Source: Escherichia phage naswa. Taken from it: DNA of 64,000 nt. The position numbers and the translations under genes are program-made. The notes beneath the pieces were generated by a model. The model was given only the letters and a program-made list of their open reading frames with translations. It did not search any database and had not been told where the DNA came from. Where the stretch lies: sequence record MN850595.1; one strand, written 5' to 3'. Shown one piece after another: positions 8,962-46,840 of this stretch. Numbering within the stretch: the stretch's first letter is position 1; each line of letters begins with the position of its first letter.

Positions 8962-9231
8962 ATGTTATACCAGCAATATGAACTTCGTGCAGAAAAAGAG
9001 TTAAATTTTGACAAAGATATTCACAGATATTATTATGGGAAAGTTAGAGGGCAAGCAAGAAAGTGTACTCCAACACTCTTTTATGCCAGCAGACGACTAG
9101 CGCCAGAAGAGGCAACAGCAGAAAGGGTTGCGTACAACTGGAGAGTCACGTATGATATTGACAGATTCGATGTGATATCTGTTTTGGAAAACTTTGAAAA
9201 CACTTACACACAAGTAGAGGACTTTTACTAA
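8962..9231 (+). CDS. hypothetical protein
   Basis: Track ORF 89 aa; stop overlaps start of the ATPase gene. Confidence 0.45.
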   Translation: MLYQQYELRAEKELNFDKDIHRYYYGKVRGQARKCTPTLFYASRRLAPEEATAERVAYNWRVTYDIDRFDVISVLENFENTYTQVEDFY

Positions 9232-10415
9232 TGTCAAGAAACGTATTCGAAAGTGGTCAAATCACTGTCCGTGAGTTGCCAGCTATTATTCAGTTTGCCC
9301 AACGTCATAGCCGATCTGTCCTAATTTTGGGACCAATGGGTGTGGGTAAAAGCCAGGTGATGAAGCAGATCGCTGATAATATGTTCGGTGAGCGAGATGA
9401 CAACCTTGTTGACGTGCGACTGTCAGATAAAGATCCTGCCGACTTATCTGGGCTACCTATCCCTGTAGAAGCGGATGGAACTACACGTACAGTGTTTGCA
9501 ATTCCAGAATTTTGGCCTGCGGATCCTGACTGGAGCGGAATTATCTTTCTGGATGAGCTCACTCATGCAGATAACTACCTGCAAAAGGTTGCAATGCAAA
9601 TTATGCTTGACCACAAGTGCGGCACCTATGCATTCCCTAAGGGTTCTGTTTTTGTGGCTGCGGGTAACCGTTCTACAGATGGTGCGGTTCTTTCGGCGCT
9701 CGAAGCCCCTCTGGCTAACCGTTTTATCATTGTAGAGGTTACAAGCAATGCAGAGGTGTTTATTGAGGACTACGCATTCCTCAACGGGGTTCACTCCTCT
9801 GTAATTGGGTATCTGAAAAGAGTTCCATCAGCTATTGATAATTATGAGGCTATGGCTGAGATTAATTGTCCATCTTTTGCCACACCACGATCTTGGGTTG
9901 CTGCATCTGACATCTTGCACGATTTTGACAGCGGTATTATTTCTGACGCTATGGCCCGTGTTCTTCTGCAAGGTGCTATTGGTCACACTGCAGCGGTAGA
10001 GATCTGGACATACCACACCAAGAAACGCAATTTACCGGAAATCGGTCGGATTATGGCAGGTGGCTGCAAAGAATACGTAGGCCCTAAGCAGCCAGACATT
10101 TTGTGGATTCTTGGATCTGAAGGTTGTATCGCTATTCGTAATATGATGGAAAATGCAAGTATCTCAGACGAAGATCTTGTCAGCTGCGTGGCAAACTTCC
10201 TCGATTTCCTTTGGGAAAACTTCAAGGACGAGAACCGAGATTTTGTATTCTCAGTCTTTATGGCGATGATGAAACCTAATGCCTTAGGAAATGCCTTGCT
10301 TATCGGTAAAGGGCGTGACAAGATTGTTGCTCAGCTGATCAAAGCATACCCAAACCTGATGAAGATTGTAAAAGAGTTTGGTGAAGAGTTTAGCGCCATT
10401 TTGGCTAAAGCTTAA
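9231..10415 (+). CDS. MoxR-like AAA+ ATPase
   Basis: Walker A 'GPMGVGKS', Walker B-like 'IIFLDEL', ~390 aa single AAA module. Confidence 0.65.
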   Translation: MSRNVFESGQITVRELPAIIQFAQRHSRSVLILGPMGVGKSQVMKQIADNMFGERDDNLVDVRLSDKDPADLSGLPIPVEADGTTRTVFAIPEFWPADPDWSGIIFLDELTHADNYLQKVAMQIMLDHKCGTYAFPKGSVFVAAGNRSTDGAVLSALEAPLANRFIIVEVTSNAEVFIEDYAFLNGVHSSVIGYLKRVPSAIDNYEAMAEINCPSFATPRSWVAASDILHDFDSGIISDAMARVLLQGAIGHTAAVEIWTYHTKKRNLPEIGRIMAGGCKEYVGPKQPDILWILGSEGCIAIRNMMENASISDEDLVSCVANFLDFLWENFKDENRDFVFSVFMAMMKPNALGNALLIGKGRDKIVAQLIKAYPNLMKIVKEFGEEFSAILAKA

Positions 10416-29054: not shown

Positions 29055-29471
29055 ATGACATTAGAAGATATCATTGTTAAGCCTGAGAACTATGACCAAT
29101 ACAACCTGTCAACTCAATCTGTAGACCTTGGATGCGCCACGGTCAGTGCGTGGCTGGTTAACGGAAAAGAGCTGGATAAATGCTTAGAAGCTCACATGTC
29201 TATTAACAAGTTTCTGGATGAAAATACTCACTGGCTTGAGGGTGCAGGCGTATATGCTTCATGGTTGGATAGTATGGGATTCGACTACCAATCTGAAGAG
29301 GGGTGGTGGAGCTATTTAGCTATCTGTCCAGAGACGCTACAATGCTTCATGAAATATTCTGAAGATTTGGAGTACCGGGCGGTGGTTGATAGTGCTATTG
29401 CCCGTTATAGCCGTAAACCTTTTTCCCACGACATTAAAACTGTGGAAGAATTTGTTGAAGTTTTCTGTTGA
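29055..29471 (+). CDS. hypothetical protein
   Basis: Track ORF 138 aa; AAGGAGA SD. Confidence 0.5.
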   Translation: MTLEDIIVKPENYDQYNLSTQSVDLGCATVSAWLVNGKELDKCLEAHMSINKFLDENTHWLEGAGVYASWLDSMGFDYQSEEGWWSYLAICPETLQCFMKYSEDLEYRAVVDSAIARYSRKPFSHDIKTVEEFVEVFC

Positions 29472-29567
29472 CACAGATTGAAAGGTGTGCAATTATAACT
29501 TCATAGAACGGGAGGACGTGATGAACGAAGAAAACTGGGATGTATAACTAACAGGAGGCCACTGCCC

Positions 29568-29765
29568 ATGATTTATCGAATCCGTGTAAGAGAAGATGCA
29601 CCAGGCTGTTACTTTGACTGGCGTGGGTGGTGGTTTATCCACCCAATGGATGGACTCACAGATAGAATGCTGGATGCTGCCCTTTACACAGATACCGACA
29701 TAGAATATAATCTCTATCTGAAGGACGGTATAGATAACGGCCTGTTTGAAGCAATTCCTGTGTAA
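29568..29765 (+). CDS. hypothetical protein
   Basis: Track ORF 65 aa; CAGGAGG SD. Confidence 0.4.
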   Translation: MIYRIRVREDAPGCYFDWRGWWFIHPMDGLTDRMLDAALYTDTDIEYNLYLKDGIDNGLFEAIPV

Positions 29766-29833: not shown

Positions 29834-30259
29834 ATGATCTATGAAATGCCAAAACTGATTCGTGACGATGCCCAAAACGCTCACACCATTATTATGGGCA
29901 AACGCATGGATATTATTTGTCATAAAGATTTCTGGGAAGGAAGTTACTTCACAGAGTATTTTGGTAAACTGGACAATGGTCTGCTGATCCAGTTCTACAC
30001 CGATGCGGAAAACAACATTCCCTGGGAGTTCGAAACTGAAGATGTCCATAAACTTTTCACCTTCCTCGGTATTAAGGTTAAGGCCAAGTTTGAAGAAGGT
30101 GAGTGCGACGATTGTGGATTTTATGAGGTAACAGATTTCTACCTTCCTAGCGGTAAGAACCTTTACTATGAAAGCCACTTCGGTAACTCCAATATGCCAC
30201 AGTGCTGGACTGAGTTTTTTGAAATTGCGGAAGAGGAGCTGGCTTACCGTGATTATTGA
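29834..30259 (+). CDS. hypothetical protein
   Basis: Track ORF 141 aa; GGAGAA SD. Confidence 0.5.
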   Translation: MIYEMPKLIRDDAQNAHTIIMGKRMDIICHKDFWEGSYFTEYFGKLDNGLLIQFYTDAENNIPWEFETEDVHKLFTFLGIKVKAKFEEGECDDCGFYEVTDFYLPSGKNLYYESHFGNSNMPQCWTEFFEIAEEELAYRDY

Positions 30260-30707
30260 TACTGTAGAGGGAGATTTAATCTCCCTTTTTAAGAGCGGTG
30301 CTGGTCACCTGATCCACGGTTGTAACTGCTTCCACACAATGGGCAAGGGTATAGCAAAACAGATTGCCCGTGAGTTTCCTCAAGCACTGTCAGCCGACAA
30401 AGAGACTAGATACGGTTGCCTAAGTAAACTGGGTGCGTTCTCCCGATGGGAGCACTTATCTCCGATAGGTATTGTCTACGGAATCAATCTATATACCCAG
30501 TTCTACCCAGGACCTAATGCTGAGTATTTCTCAATCCTGAAAGGCTTTGAGCTAGTCAATGAAGTATTCAGCGGATCGACTTTACCATTCTACATCCCTA
30601 AGATCGGGTGCGGCATAGGCGGTTTGAAGTGGGAACACGTAGAGGACGTTATTAACCTTGCCACTTTCGACATAGATATTGTCGTGGTGGAGTACAAAAA
30701 GTGTTGA
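30249..30707 (+). CDS. macro-domain-like protein (ADP-ribose binding/processing)
   Basis: 'HLIHGCNCFHTMGKGIAKQIAREFP' and 'PKIGCGIGGL' resemble macro-domain nucleotide-binding loops; start at GTG 30249 (alternative ATG 30168). Confidence 0.5.
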   Translation: MIIDTVEGDLISLFKSGAGHLIHGCNCFHTMGKGIAKQIAREFPQALSADKETRYGCLSKLGAFSRWEHLSPIGIVYGINLYTQFYPGPNAEYFSILKGFELVNEVFSGSTLPFYIPKIGCGIGGLKWEHVEDVINLATFDIDIVVVEYKKC

Positions 30708-30958
30708 CGACCATCTTCTGAGGTGATATAGTTTCCACGACAACTAAGAGAGGAGAGCACTGTGGAGACTAAAATCTTAATTCTTGCTGTGGTAGATACA
30801 ACCGAAGGAGCTATATTCGAATCTGCAGGAGGGTATTTCTACCTACCATACGGAAAAAGAACTTCCGAGCCAAGTAAAGATTCAATCCTCAAAGTGTTCC
30901 CGTGTGCTTTCTGGCTGGAGATTTTGGTATAAGATTGCAGAGGATTTGGGAGAGAATT

Positions 30959-31153: not shown

Positions 31154-31216
31154 GAGGTTGACATCTGAAAACTGCAGTGTATAATATACGCATAAACTAA
31201 CAGAGGGTGATGTATT

Positions 31217-43880: not shown

Positions 43881-43929
43881 CTTTTTTGAAGGGGAGTTGT
43901 AAGAAAATTAACTAAGAGGTAAAAACACC

Positions 43930-44349
43930 ATGAACATTAAATCTAATAATCCGGCATATAGCTTTGATAACGCTTTTTGTCACGGTCCGGCGGCGAAAGG
44001 ATTCGAAATCGATGGTAAACTAATTATTGTCAATGTTGACGGGGAAGAGGTTGCAGTATATCCGGTGGCAGACGTTAAAAGCCGTCTACAATGCCGCATG
44101 GATGTTACCGCCTATCAGCTTGATCCGGTCCGCATAGTTGCCCTGGTCCTGGAAGAAGAAATTAAAGCCATGCACCATAGCAACAGATTTATTGGTGACG
44201 CGCAGGATAATATGAAAGTATGCCGCCATAAAGTTAATGAAGTGCTTAAAGAGTACGGCTATAAAGATCTTATGATCAAACGCGAGGAAAAATTCCGCTA
44301 CCGTAACGACCTGGCAAATCGGATTTTTGAAATATACGAATCATTATAA
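43930..44349 (+). CDS. hypothetical protein
   Basis: Track ORF 139 aa; last gene of plus-strand arm. Confidence 0.5.
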   Translation: MNIKSNNPAYSFDNAFCHGPAAKGFEIDGKLIIVNVDGEEVAVYPVADVKSRLQCRMDVTAYQLDPVRIVALVLEEEIKAMHHSNRFIGDAQDNMKVCRHKVNEVLKEYGYKDLMIKREEKFRYRNDLANRIFEIYESL

Positions 44350-44367
44350 TTTTTTAACTGAATTATC

Positions 44368-44393
44368 AAGGGGCTTAGGCCCCTTTCTTTTTG
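44368..44393 (+). terminator. rho-independent terminator
   Basis: AAGGGGC-TTAG-GCCCCTT hairpin then TCTTTTTG. Confidence 0.6.
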
Positions 44394-44399
44394 TCTGCT

Positions 44400-46840
44400 C
44401 TTCCCCCCCTACCATAAACGGCCCTACCTGGCAAGTGGAATAATTGACGAGCCATCAATCCCACACACTGTACAAATATACATGGAAAATAACTATTGCA
44501 TAATTTTTCATTGTGTGGTAGCAAGGCCATTTTTACCCGTTTTACCTTCCAAAATTGCACGTAATGCCGCTATTGCACAAATTTTAACCTGATGCACATC
44601 TCCAATATCTTGTCAACAACTAAAAATCTTTATAAGTCATGCACTTACATAACCACAAAAGCGTGTTCTACGTGAAAAATCGAGTATAACTATAGCCGCC
44701 AGATCTCAGAATTTACGTACGCTCACCAGTCTATAGCCTGCTAAGTATTTATTCCAACCATAGAATAACGGAATAGTCAATACCTGCATAAAATAATTAT
44801 TCGTGTAAACTGCATAACATAAATCGGCTAGGATGTCAACATTTTTCGTAAACAGCTCGAAATTATAACGGTGAGTTATAATAAACAGAGAAATCTTTAG
44901 TCGTCTAATGTTTACTGTACATTACTATACTGACTGGAATCATTAGATGACTAAGAGAAAGATAAGAAATCATTAACAATGCAATTGTTTTATTCGTAAC
45001 AATAAGGCAACTATGCAAACGAATGGCATGGCGCGACGGAGTCGCGACATAATATAAAAGCAGTAACCATCACCCCCGTGATAGTTTGTCTGCAAACTAT
45101 TAATCAGATCATAGTTGCCTTGTATTTAGTTAATCATGACATAACAAGCAGGGCAACTATAGATCTGCTAATAGTTGCCCTGCTTTTATATTATGTCATG
45201 CTAATTATAATCAGTGCGATTATTGTCATGTATAATTATTGTCATGCAAACGAATGGCATGGCTGATTATCGGTGTGTAAACAGTCAATCATGTAAATGG
45301 TTAGCATGTGAACAATCAGGAATGTAAACAATCCAGTGTGTAAACTAATAGGTGTGTAAAAGTGTCATGTTGTGTCAGTTAGGTCACATTATGTCAGACA
45401 AGTTTTTCTCCTCTTTGTCAAGTGCTGCATGAAAAATTTACAAGCTTGTATGGTAGCATTTTTGCGGCCCTGTTTACATTCAGGAGTGTATGTATAATCC
45501 TTGGTGTGTGGGCGTTTAGACGTCTAGACGGTTGGAAGTATGCAGGTCAATATCTAATCTATTGGCTGCTAACTATATCCCACACAAATGATAAGAAATA
45601 TAATTGTTATATGCGTAAACTGTAACTCATGTTATCAATCCCTGTATGTATCGCCAGTGGTGCGCATAATGGGTATTATGTTAAATTGCCCGTAATGATA
45701 ACTATTCTCACAATGATAGGTATTCTCATTCACCCCCACAAGATAGGTTGCAAATGTTGTGCCACTGTGTGAACGGCCTAGCCTATTAATTTGCCTCACT
45801 GCCTTGATATTTGAGAATTGTTATAAGAATGAGAAGTATTCCCATTTCGTCCGCCTGGCAGCACTCCAGTCGCTACCGGCTCCTGACAGGGCAGCTCTCC
45901 TGTAGGTCAGGTCAAAATCGTGGTAGAATTGGGCCTATTCAGATATTTCTGGCTGACTCTTCAGGTCTGTGTGAGAAAAGCCAACCTTTCCGGCGGCGGG
46001 GAGGGGTCAATTAAAAAATTTACGTGGTGTATGAAGCGCTCTTCAGGTAAGGCAGGTATTATGTGATGAAACCCTCTTCAGGCAATGATATTTGTGGGTG
46101 TGATATTTGCTGGAAAGCCAGATATGACGGGACTCCCGGCGGGGCAGGGGTAGTACAGACAGGGAAAATATGGGGGATGTAGTTGGGGAAATTGATCAGG
46201 CAGGTAGAGTATGGAATATGTTACAAGTATGTTAAATATGGAGGTTGAATATCTGCAGGATTTGTGTGTAAAATCAAAGACTTAAGTGGTGTTGTGGTAT
46301 TTTCTATAAATAATTCAAGTTTAATAGGTAATATTTGTCTCTATCCACTTTGTGTGGTAAACAGATTCAGATGAAATTGGTTTACAAGTGTATACATAAT
46401 ATACAAATTAAAGATACAAGAAACCCCCCTCCCCCTTCGGCTACCATTCACCTTTTCCTCTGACTGGTACTTAAACACTTATTCAGACTCTTCAGGTTAT
46501 CACCCATATATCATATGGCAGTGACTGGTGTCCTCCGGCCCCTCTTTCGTCACCCGTCCGCTTCGCCATGCTAATGCCATAGCCAATGGTTCGGTTGTTC
46601 ACCCTGTTCACTCAGGTGTATCTCCATACCCCTTCAAACCGAAGAGAACAGAAAACCCGAATTACTCGGTAAAAGAAAAGAGAAGAACTTAATTTTATCA
46701 GGATAGGCAAGAATGTCAAGGCATGACTGCTCACTAAACAAGCAAACAGTCATGTGTGGTAGGTAAGTGATTGTGGTGGTAGGAAATTTAGTTGAAAGAT
46801 GTGTTATAGGTGCGCTTCCAGCACTTTAGCCGGGCAGCTA
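44400..46840. other. ~2.4-kb non-coding convergence region with several repeat families (candidate origin / packaging / terminus region)
   Basis: No long co-directional ORF; 20-bp direct repeat at 45013 and 45244; ATAGTT(G/T) palindromes 45082-45182; six TGTAAAC-like iterons 45276-45361; CTCTTCAGG x5 from 45957. Confidence 0.5.
45276..45361. repeat. six iteron-like repeats (TGTAAAC core, 14-17 bp period)
   Basis: Cores at 45276, 45293, 45307, 45323, 45339, 45355. Confidence 0.5.

What the first reader, a model, noticed from the sequence alone, without database searches (positions are those of the whole stretch)
30249..30707. Phage-encoded macro-domain-like protein
Motifs resembling macro-domain ADP-ribose binding loops are present. 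Macro domains remove ADP-ribose modifications and could counter ADP-ribosylating host defences such as DarT-type toxins, or act on NAD-derived signals.
Basis: partly seen in the sequence, partly recalled or inferred. Interest (0 to 1): 0.6.

Follow-up and report, generated by a model that had tools for sequence, protein, structure and literature searches.

The report
Phage macrodomain, Tk.4/AdfM anti-DarT family
This rV5-like E. coli phage gene encodes a small ADP-ribose-removing "macro" enzyme of the same widespread family as phage T4 Tk.4, which was recently shown to protect T4 from a bacterial defence that ADP-ribosylates DNA, so it is a real but ordinary counter-defence gene.

Summary

The window is a Vequintavirus, 100% identical over the 3 kb compared to Escherichia phage magaca. 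Some sister genomes already annotate this gene "macro domain protein" or "phosphatase".

The protein belongs to the T4 Tk.4 family (PHROG 335). It is 39% identical to T4 Tk.4 over the full length (E 3e-41). It is 69.5% identical to the gene at the tk.4 locus of a Krischvirus. A 2025 preprint shows that a tk.4 knock-out sensitises T4 to DarTG2, and names the gene adfM.

One refinement: the whole clade has Gln (Q84 here) where DarG and TARG1 have the catalytic Lys. This is the SCO6735-type site, and SCO6735 is biochemically shown to cleave thymidine-linked ADP-ribose from DNA. The clade is not a DarG-derived antitoxin, unlike PhiKZ AdfM. It lacks the DarT-binding domain.

The most likely function is a thymidine-ADP-ribosyl-DNA hydrolase that counters DarT2. 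This is inferred, not shown. It is a new member of a known kind, of low interest.

The parts
30249..30707 (+). CDS of the 152-aa stand-alone macrodomain protein (GTG start, TGA stop). It belongs to the Tk.4/AdfM family, PHROG 335.
30233..30238 (+). GAGGAG Shine-Dalgarno sequence 10 nt upstream of the GTG start. It lies inside the 3' end of the upstream ORF.
   Evidence: sequence read directly
30315..30329 (+). H23-G-C-N26-C27 motif. N26 aligns with DarG N22, which the SCO6735 paper equates with SCO6735 N27. H23 aligns with Poa1p H23 and TARG1 H32, and with SCO6735 H24 if a constant +1 numbering offset is assumed.
30339..30356 (+). M31-G-K33-G34-I-A36, the first phosphate/ribose-binding GxG loop. 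K33 corresponds to SCO6735 K34 if a constant +1 numbering offset is assumed (not directly aligned).
30486..30500 (+). N80-L-Y-T83-Q84 motif. Q84 occupies the position of the catalytic Lys of DarG (K80) and TARG1 (K84), and so that of the essential Gln85 of SCO6735. It is Gln in 231 of 232 aligned family representatives.
30597..30623 (+). P117-K-I-G-C-G-I-G-G125, the second diphosphate-binding loop. It has Gly at the TARG1 D125 position, as in DarG.
29834..30259 (+). Upstream 141-aa ORF of unknown function (PHROG 8157). It overlaps the macro start by 11 nt and is probably co-transcribed and translationally coupled. It is not related to T4 vs.
29683..29711 (+). Sigma-70-like promoter match (TTTACA-17-TATAAT, 11/12) upstream of the two-gene unit. 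This is a consensus match only. It would suggest host-RNAP (early) transcription.

Best explanation
The gene encodes a stand-alone macrodomain enzyme of the ALC1-like (TARG1/DarG/SCO6735/Poa1p) class. It belongs to the very large phage clade typified by T4 Tk.4 (AdfM).

It most likely acts as an orphan, antitoxin-like counter-defence enzyme. The proposed sequence of events is:
1. The gene is probably transcribed from host-type promoters together with the small accessory genes downstream of the DNA polymerase.
2. The protein binds ADP-ribose that a host DarT2 toxin has attached to thymidine in single-stranded phage DNA.
3. It hydrolyses the ribose-thymine bond.
4. This releases ADP-ribose and restores a replicable template.

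Catalysis is predicted to follow the SCO6735-type mechanism, not the lysine mechanism of DarG and TARG1. In that mechanism Gln84, held by Asn26, positions the distal ribose and a water-mediated step breaks the bond. The protein has no DarT-binding domain, so it should neutralise the product of the toxin rather than the toxin itself.

Shown here: the macro fold, family membership, active-site residue pattern and purifying selection. Shown elsewhere: T4 tk.4 is required for resistance to DarTG2, and SCO6735 with Gln85 cleaves dT-ADP-ribose. Inferred: that this Vequintavirus protein has the same substrate and biological role, and the timing of its expression.
For: Identity and fold:
- Macro fold and binding loops.
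- 39% identity, E 3e-41, end to end with T4 Tk.4.
- Same PHROG 335.
- 69.5% identity to the gene at the syntenic vs-tk.4-tk position of Krischvirus W115.

Function of relatives:
- A T4 tk.4 knock-out is sensitised to DarTG2, and the gene was named adfM.
- T4 lacking adfA and adfN stays DarTG2-resistant, which implied another factor.
- The only hit in PADLOC and the only significant hit (E<0.01) in NCBIfam is DarG, over the macrodomain half.

Active site:
- Q84 aligns with DarG K80 and TARG1 K84.
- SCO6735 has Gln85 at that position, cleaves thymidine-linked ADP-ribose on DNA and protects against DarT. Q85A and N27S abolish or nearly abolish its activity.
- H23, N26 and Q84 are invariant or nearly invariant in 235 representatives.

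Context:
- The longest domain fusions of this clade are to NADAR, the guanine-ADP-ribosyl-DNA hydrolase of DarG1 and AdfN.
- E. coli carries DarTG systems that ADP-ribosylate ssDNA (PMC7003065 abstract).
- dN/dS is 0.22.
- Repeated natural deletions and frameshifts of the gene in related genomes fit an accessory counter-defence gene.
Against: - No biochemical data exist for any Tk.4-clade protein. The T4 evidence is genetic and comes from a preprint.
- No Vequintavirinae phage has been tested on DarTG2. The Bas54 transposon screen did not include it.
- The clade lacks DarG's catalytic Lys and its DarT-binding domain.
- By sequence the clade is equidistant from DarG, BT1257, TARG1, SCO6735 and Poa1p (58-67 bits). 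For T4 Tk.4 the nearest solved relatives are BT1257 and Poa1p, not DarG.
- It shares H23, N26 and S/T30 with Poa1p, an ADP-ribose-1''-phosphate phosphatase.
- A comparative-genomics survey argued that phage macrodomains mainly target small ADP-ribose derivatives (PMC9503650).
- 39% identity does not guarantee the same substrate.
Confidence: 0.6

Rival explanations
1. It is a hydrolase for small soluble ADP-ribose derivatives, such as ADP-ribose-1''-phosphate (the legacy 'A1pp phosphatase' annotation), O-acetyl-ADP-ribose, or an ADP-ribose-derived immune signal or toxin. On this view it does not repair DNA.
For: - T4 Tk.4 and many homologues are annotated 'phosphatase' on the basis of an A1pp motif.
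- The H23-x-C-N26-C27-x-x-T30 motif matches Poa1p's H23...N26...S30. H23 and S30 were chosen for mutagenesis in the Poa1p structures.
- Iyer et al. argue that phage Macro and NADAR domains mainly counter low-molecular-weight ADP-ribose derivatives.
Against: - The T4 tk.4 phenotype is specific to DarTG2, a DNA-modifying system.
- Poa1p has Ser, not Gln, at the Q84 position and carries a large insertion.
- The H/N/Q residue set matches SCO6735, which acts on DNA and protein.
- The fusion partner NADAR has since been shown to be a DNA-ADP-ribose hydrolase in phages.
- No KptA/Tpt1 or 2H RNA-repair partner was found near the gene.
Confidence: 0.15
2. It removes ADP-ribose from proteins or RNA. It would either reverse a host ADP-ribosyltransferase defence other than DarT2, or tune ADP-ribosylation made by phage enzymes.
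For: ALC1-like macrodomains are promiscuous. TARG1 and SCO6735 also de-ADP-ribosylate Asp/Glu-modified proteins.
Against: - Homology scans of the 10 neighbouring ORFs gave no Pfam hit and only function-unknown PHROGs, and no ADP-ribosyltransferase is annotated in the sister genome region corresponding to about window 1-49,000.
- CmdTAC, an mRNA ADP-ribosyltransferase, defends robustly against T4 even though T4 carries Tk.4.
- There is no experimental link between the clade and protein substrates.
Confidence: 0.15
3. It is a non-catalytic ADP-ribose reader, or a decaying gene without function, because the catalytic lysine is missing.
For: Lys is replaced by Gln at the DarG K80 / TARG1 K84 position. 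Several related genomes carry deleted or frameshifted alleles.
Against: - Gln is invariant across the clade (231 of 232 aligned), as are H23 and N26.
- Gln85 is catalytically essential in SCO6735.
- dN/dS is 0.22.
- T4 Tk.4, which has the same Gln, has a clear phenotype.
Confidence: 0.04

Closest known systems
T4 Tk.4 = AdfM(T4), anti-DarT factor Macrodomain (bioRxiv 10.1101/2025.11.20.689424)
   Same: - Same size and a single-domain architecture.
- 39% identity over the full length, E 3e-41.
- Same PHROG 335.
- Same signature motifs: HGCNC, MGxGIA, NLYTQ, P.IGxGxG.
- A Krischvirus Tk.4 at the syntenic locus is 69.5% identical to the window protein.
   Different: The genomic neighbourhood differs. 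It is not flanked by vs or tk, and the upstream ORF is unrelated to Vs. No phenotype has been tested for the Vequintavirus gene.
SCO6735 of Streptomyces coelicolor (PDB 5E3B), a thymidine-ADP-ribosyl-DNA and protein hydrolase
   Same: - ALC1-like macro fold.
- Gln at the catalytic-Lys position, stabilised by a conserved Asn.
- His and Lys (K33 for K34) equivalents are also present if a constant +1 numbering offset holds.
- It is a stand-alone protein without a cognate DarT.
   Different: - Only about 22% identity.
- The window protein is about 5 residues shorter over the aligned span, which is consistent with lacking SCO6735's extended mobile loop carrying K89/K94.
- SCO6735 is a bacterial SOS-regulated gene, not a phage gene.
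- A direct residue-by-residue alignment could not be printed. The equivalence rests on both proteins aligning to DarG K80 / TARG1 K84.
DarG (DarG2) antitoxin macrodomain (PDB 5M3I, 5M31/5M3E, 7OMU)
   Same: - N26 corresponds to N22.
- The Gly-rich second loop is like DarG's, not TARG1's Asp.
- DarG is the only defence-family model hit.
   Different: - Catalytic K80 is replaced by Q84.
- There is no C-terminal DarT-binding domain: 152 aa against about 330-340.
- There is no adjacent darT.
- It scores 47-48 bits against an equivalog cut-off of 250.
PhiKZ gp104 = AdfM of chimalliviruses (PMC13309987)
   Same: A phage-encoded stand-alone macrodomain. It was shown to remove DarT2-made ADP-ribose from ssDNA and to protect against DarTG2.
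   Different: It is a different clade.
- PhiKZ AdfM is a true DarG-like protein: E 9e-25 to Mtb DarG, an FPTK motif with K78, and 133-138 bits to the DarG models.
- It is only 20% identical to the window protein, E 1e-4.
BT1257 (PDB 2FG1/2AFC) and yeast Poa1p (6LFQ etc.)
   Same: - BT1257 also has the His, Asn and Gln residues.
- Poa1p shares the HxCNC...S/T motif.
   Different: BT1257 has no known function. Poa1p is an Appr1p phosphatase with Ser at the Gln position and a long insertion.

Membership tests
Macro domain superfamily (Pfam PF01661) | Profile match above the curated threshold | tested here: met
   28 bits against a gathering score of 22, E 2e-6. Most family members carry a precomputed PF01661 hit.
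Macro domain superfamily (Pfam PF01661) | Three-layer alpha/beta/alpha macro fold | tested here: met
   [not shown]
Macro domain superfamily (Pfam PF01661) | Conserved ADP-ribose-binding loops: N-terminal GD, the GxG loop and the Gly-rich diphosphate loop | tested here: met
   G8-D9, MGKGIA (31-36) and PKIGCGIGG (117-125) align with the liganded structures and are near-invariant.
Macro domain superfamily (Pfam PF01661) | Binds ADP-ribose | not testable with these tools
   No docking or assay was available.
ALC1-like (TARG1/DarG/SCO6735/Poa1p) macrodomain class | Closer to this class than to the MacroD, viral Mac1, PARG or macroH2A classes | tested here: met
   [not shown]
Tk.4 / AdfM(T4) clade (PHROG 335) | Full-length homology to T4 Tk.4 | tested here: met
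   39% identity, 64% positives, E 3e-41, residues 1-150 against 1-152. PHROG 335 at E 2e-59.
Tk.4 / AdfM(T4) clade (PHROG 335) | Clade signature HGCNC ... NLYTQ ... P.IG(C/A)G.(G/A)G | tested here: met
   All three motifs are present. In 235 representatives the counts are H23 226, N26 233, Q84 231 and G120 231.
Tk.4 / AdfM(T4) clade (PHROG 335) | Protects the phage from DarTG2 | not testable with these tools
   Shown only for T4. The Bas54 (Vequintavirinae) library was not challenged with DarTG2.
DarG2 antitoxin | Catalytic lysine (Taq/Mtb K80) | tested here: not met
   Q84 aligns with the first K of FPTKK. K80 was identified by counting from the 5M31 chain with N22 as a control.
DarG2 antitoxin | C-terminal DarT-binding domain | tested here: not met
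   The protein is 152 aa and matches only positions 3-142 of the 329/338-position DarG models.
DarG2 antitoxin | Encoded next to a darT toxin gene | tested here: not met
   The neighbours are small phage ORFs with no Pfam hit, in PHROGs of unknown function.
DarG2 antitoxin | Conserved active-site Asn (N22) | tested here: met
   N26 aligns with N22 and is invariant.
SCO6735-type Gln-dependent dT-ADP-ribose hydrolase | Gln at the DarG K80 / TARG1 K84 position, with a stabilising Asn | tested here: met
   Q84 and N26. Equivalence to Q85 and N27 follows from the paper's statement that Q85 corresponds to K80/K84 and that N27 is the DarG Asn.
SCO6735-type Gln-dependent dT-ADP-ribose hydrolase | Extended mobile loop with K89/K94 after the Gln | tested here: inconclusive
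   The aligned span is 133 residues in the query against 138 in 5E3B, which is consistent with the 5-residue loop being absent. No residue-level alignment was obtained.
Poa1p-type ADP-ribose-1''-phosphate phosphatase | H23 / N26 / S30 motif | tested here: met
   H23, N26 and T30 align with Poa1p H23, N26 and S30. The functional weight of these residues is known to me only from the PDB mutant titles.
Poa1p-type ADP-ribose-1''-phosphate phosphatase | Overall sequence and architecture match, including the central region | tested here: not met
   Only the N-terminal 45 and C-terminal 30 residues align for the window protein. Poa1p has Ser at the Q84 position and about 25 extra residues.

The most novel reading that the evidence does not exclude
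The whole Tk.4 clade has at least 1,358 clusters at 50% identity and is present in about 5% of sequenced phage records. The most novel reading is that this clade is not a captured DarG. It would instead be an independent, Gln-dependent branch of ALC1-like macrodomains, together with SCO6735 and BT1257. Its substrate range would then be broader than, or different from, thymidine-ADP-ribose. For example, it might also reverse protein or other nucleic-acid ADP-ribosylation made by defence systems not yet described. In Vequintavirinae its main target might not be DarT2.
Probability: 0.2. Interest if true: 0.45.

Novelty: new member of a known kind. Interest (0 to 1): 0.25.

Why it matters
The finding assigns a probable counter-defence function (anti-DarTG2) to a gene that most Vequintavirus records still call "hypothetical protein". 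These phages are candidates for therapy, so this is useful for predicting their host range on DarTG2-carrying E. coli.

The residue analysis adds one point that was absent from the passages of the T4 preprint read here. The Tk.4/AdfM(T4) clade lacks DarG's catalytic lysine and carries the SCO6735-type Gln. The two phage proteins both named "AdfM" (T4 Tk.4 and PhiKZ gp104) are therefore different macrodomain lineages that probably use different chemistry. Nothing here opens a new kind of biology.

Tried and rejected
- **Single-sequence AF2 model.** It was useless (pLDDT 34.8, all-helical). Only the model built from the 49-sequence alignment was used.
- **Longer ORF from ATG 30168.** Rejected: it has no SD, it overlaps the upstream gene, and homologues start at the GTG position.
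- **Neighbouring genes as functional partners.** The 10 neighbours have no Pfam hit and fall only in PHROGs of unknown function. The upstream overlapping ORF is not a Vs homologue.
- **Second macro, NADAR or DUF4326 gene in the window.** tblastn found none.
- **Residue-level alignment to SCO6735 (5E3B).** The attempts failed because it never ranked in the five alignments shown. The equivalence is argued through DarG and TARG1 instead.
- **Literature search for 'AdfM' alone.** It returned mostly noise.
- **Data on Vequintavirinae plated on DarTG2.** None were found.
- **Direct DarG ancestry ('orphan antitoxin' in the strict sense).** Considered and rejected for this clade. PhiKZ AdfM scores 133-138 bits to the DarG models, against 47-48 bits here, and the clade is equidistant from all ALC1-like structures.

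Full report
**What is there**

Window 30249..30707 (+) is a 459-nt CDS. The mechanical ORF call begins at ATG 30168, but GTG 30249 is the real start, for three reasons:
- A GAGGAG Shine-Dalgarno lies 10 nt upstream, whereas the ATG has none and sits inside the preceding gene.
- T4 Tk.4 (MIVKYIKGD...) and Krischvirus W115 (MIIDTVKGD...) start at the equivalent residue.
- Two sister genomes annotate exactly this 459-nt CDS.

The start overlaps the stop of the upstream 141-aa ORF (29834..30259) by 11 nt. The gene is under purifying selection, with dN/dS 0.22 against the NHEP1 orthologue.

**Whose genome**

The 3 kb around the gene is 100% identical to Escherichia phage magaca and at least 90% identical to 119 records, almost all Vequintavirinae (rV5-like myoviruses of E. 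coli). The gene sits in a long + strand block of small genes of unknown function. This block lies downstream of rIIA/rIIB, a helicase, two methyltransferases, a primase/helicase and the DNA polymerase. The block is dotted with sigma-70-like promoter matches, which are consensus matches only. In these records the gene is called 'hypothetical protein', 'phosphatase' or 'macro domain protein'.

**Is it a macrodomain?**

Yes. The sequence evidence is:
- Pfam Macro at 28 bits against a gathering score of 22.
- PHROG 335 at E 2e-59.
- A profile of 49 homologues hits only macrodomains in the PDB, at E 3e-17 to 6e-11 for the Mtb DarG macrodomain, BT1257, TARG1, SCO6735, Poa1p, Taq DarG and Thermosipho DarTG.

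The ADP-ribose-binding elements are all present and near-invariant across 235 family representatives. They are G8-D9, HGCN26C, MGKGIA and PKIGCGIGG.

**Which family**

The protein is 39% identical (64% similar) to T4 Tk.4 from end to end, E 3e-41. tblastn finds homologues in 2,717 of 50,697 phage records. These include the tk.4 genes of T-even phages at about 40-45% identity. Krischvirus W115, a T4-like phage, has a 69.5%-identical gene at the syntenic position between vs and tk. Only the macro gene is shared. The Vequintavirus upstream ORF is unrelated to Vs, so the macrodomain travels as a single-gene module.

An exhaustive profile search finds 1,358 clusters (50% identity) at E<=1e-30 and 10,410 at E<=1e-10. 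Almost all are stand-alone proteins of 145-170 aa. According to a published survey, macrodomains occur in 41% of myoviruses (PMC9503650).

**What the family does**

A transposon screen of T4 found tk.4 to be the single gene required in the presence of DarTG2. A clean knock-out became DarTG2-sensitive, and the authors renamed the gene adfM (bioRxiv 10.1101/2025.11.20.689424). This fits an earlier observation that T4 lacking adfA and adfN remains DarTG2-resistant (PMC11825919).

Independently, a macrodomain of nucleus-forming phages (PhiKZ gp104, also named AdfM) was shown biochemically to remove DarT2-made ADP-ribose from ssDNA and to be needed on DarTG2 hosts (PMC13309987). No biochemistry exists for the Tk.4 clade. 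The Vequintavirinae phage screened in the preprint (Bas54) was not challenged with DarTG2.

**A refinement: the active site is not DarG's**

In HMMER alignments the window's N80-L-Y-T-Q84 lines up with DarG's N-F-P-T-K and TARG1's L-I-T-K. I counted along the 5M31 chain, using N22 as a control, and the first K of FPTKK is K80. Q84 therefore replaces the catalytic lysine of DarG (K80) and TARG1 (K84). TARG1's D125 position is Gly, as in DarG.

The Gln is not a degenerate feature. It is present in 231 of 232 aligned family representatives, including T4 Tk.4, alongside near-invariant H23 and invariant N26.

There is a precise precedent. Streptomyces SCO6735 has Gln85 at the position of K80/K84 and cleaves thymidine-linked ADP-ribose from DNA with high turnover. 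It protects against DarT, and it is inactivated by Q85A/E and nearly so by N27S. The proposed mechanism has Gln85, locked by Asn27, holding the distal-ribose ring oxygen while a backbone-positioned water initiates cleavage (PMC9411070; review PMC9967889).

**Not a captured DarG**

The window protein scores 47-48 bits on the DarG models of PADLOC and NCBIfam, covering only their macrodomain half. PhiKZ AdfM scores 133-138 bits. PhiKZ AdfM matches only DarG structures (E 9e-25) and keeps the FPTK lysine. It is just 20% identical to the window protein.

The Tk.4 profile is about equidistant from DarG, BT1257, TARG1, SCO6735 and Poa1p, at 58-67 bits. T4 Tk.4 itself is closest to BT1257 and Poa1p. 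The two 'AdfM' proteins are therefore different lineages of the same class. The window protein also lacks DarG's DarT-binding domain and any neighbouring darT.

**Supporting context**

Among the top 150 representatives, the three longest proteins fuse this macrodomain to a NADAR domain, with DUF4326 in one of them. A fourth protein fuses it to DUF4326. NADAR is the guanine-ADP-ribosyl-DNA hydrolase of DarG1 and of phage AdfN. A Macro-NADAR fusion would cover both DarT chemistries.

The gene is also repeatedly lost. Vequintavirus-like contigs carry four inactivated alleles:
- A deletion joining the upstream ORF to the C-terminal half at a shared QFY.
- An in-frame deletion between two WEH codons.
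- Two frameshifted alleles.

That pattern suits an accessory counter-defence gene. CmdTAC, which ADP-ribosylates mRNA, still defends strongly against T4. Tk.4-type enzymes therefore do not reverse every ADP-ribosylation.

**Rivals**

The legacy 'phosphatase' label reflects an A1pp motif. The window protein does share H23, N26 and S/T30 with yeast Poa1p. A role on small ADP-ribose derivatives therefore cannot be excluded, and I give it about 0.15. De-ADP-ribosylation of proteins or RNA is plausible for this promiscuous class, also at about 0.15. An inactive reader is unlikely, given the invariant site and the selection (about 0.04).

**Verdict**

The gene is a new, uncharacterised member of a known and very common phage family whose T4 representative is an anti-DarTG2 factor. 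The main added value is the Lys-to-Gln (SCO6735-type) active site, which separates this lineage from the DarG-like AdfM of PhiKZ. Interest is low (0.25).

Noticed in passing
related contigs (proteins P0017, P0019, P0037, P0052); corresponds to window 29990-30506 and about 30446-30634: There are four natural inactivated alleles of the macro gene in roughly 135-kb Vequintavirus-like contigs.
- P0017 fuses residues 1-55 of the upstream ORF in frame to macro residues 84-152. This is a 508-nt deletion between two QFY-coding microhomologies.
- P0019 is an in-frame deletion between the two WEH codons.
- P0037 and P0052 are frameshifted.
The gene is dispensable and repeatedly lost.
   Followed up: partly
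proteins P0117, P0206, P0221, P0153 (metagenomic relatives): Tk.4-type macrodomains occur fused to NADAR (and DUF4326) domains in proteins of 302-570 aa. These may be bifunctional erasers of thymine- and guanine-linked DNA ADP-ribosylation. P0206 also has an uncharacterised N-terminal region of about 155 aa.
   Followed up: partly
window 29834-30259 (+): A 141-aa ORF of unknown function (PHROG 8157, no Pfam hit) overlaps the macro gene start by 11 nt. It may be translationally coupled. It is not related to T4 Vs, and I could not tell whether it cooperates with the macrodomain.
   Followed up: partly
window 31158-31185 (+), also 29468-29496, 29683-29711 and 30704-30732: There is a perfect sigma-70 consensus (TTGACA-16-TATAAT) plus several near-consensus promoters between the small genes around the macro gene. 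The scan found 17 promoter-like sites against 10.8 +/- 2.7 in shuffles. This suggests that many short host-RNAP-driven transcription units lie in this accessory block.
   Followed up: no
window 9231-10415 (+): This is a MoxR-type ATPase gene, annotated bas48_0063 in CarlMeissner. The same-numbered MoxR ATPase gene in Bas54 (bas54_0063), which I take to be the orthologue, is reported in the HIDEN-SEQ preprint as required to overcome the predicted defence system DS-28.
   Followed up: no
window about 43900-46350 (from locus L004 annotation): A stretch of about 2.4 kb has no annotated gene and separates the + strand and - strand gene blocks. The HIDEN-SEQ preprint notes a roughly 2-kb intergenic region in Bas54, between divergently oriented genes, that tolerated no transposon insertions. 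This is probably the equivalent locus (an origin or regulatory region?).
   Followed up: no
literature: Two unrelated-clade phage macrodomains, T4 Tk.4 and PhiKZ gp104, have both been named AdfM by different groups. They are about 20% identical or less and differ at the catalytic Lys/Gln position. This is a nomenclature trap for annotation transfer.
   Followed up: yes
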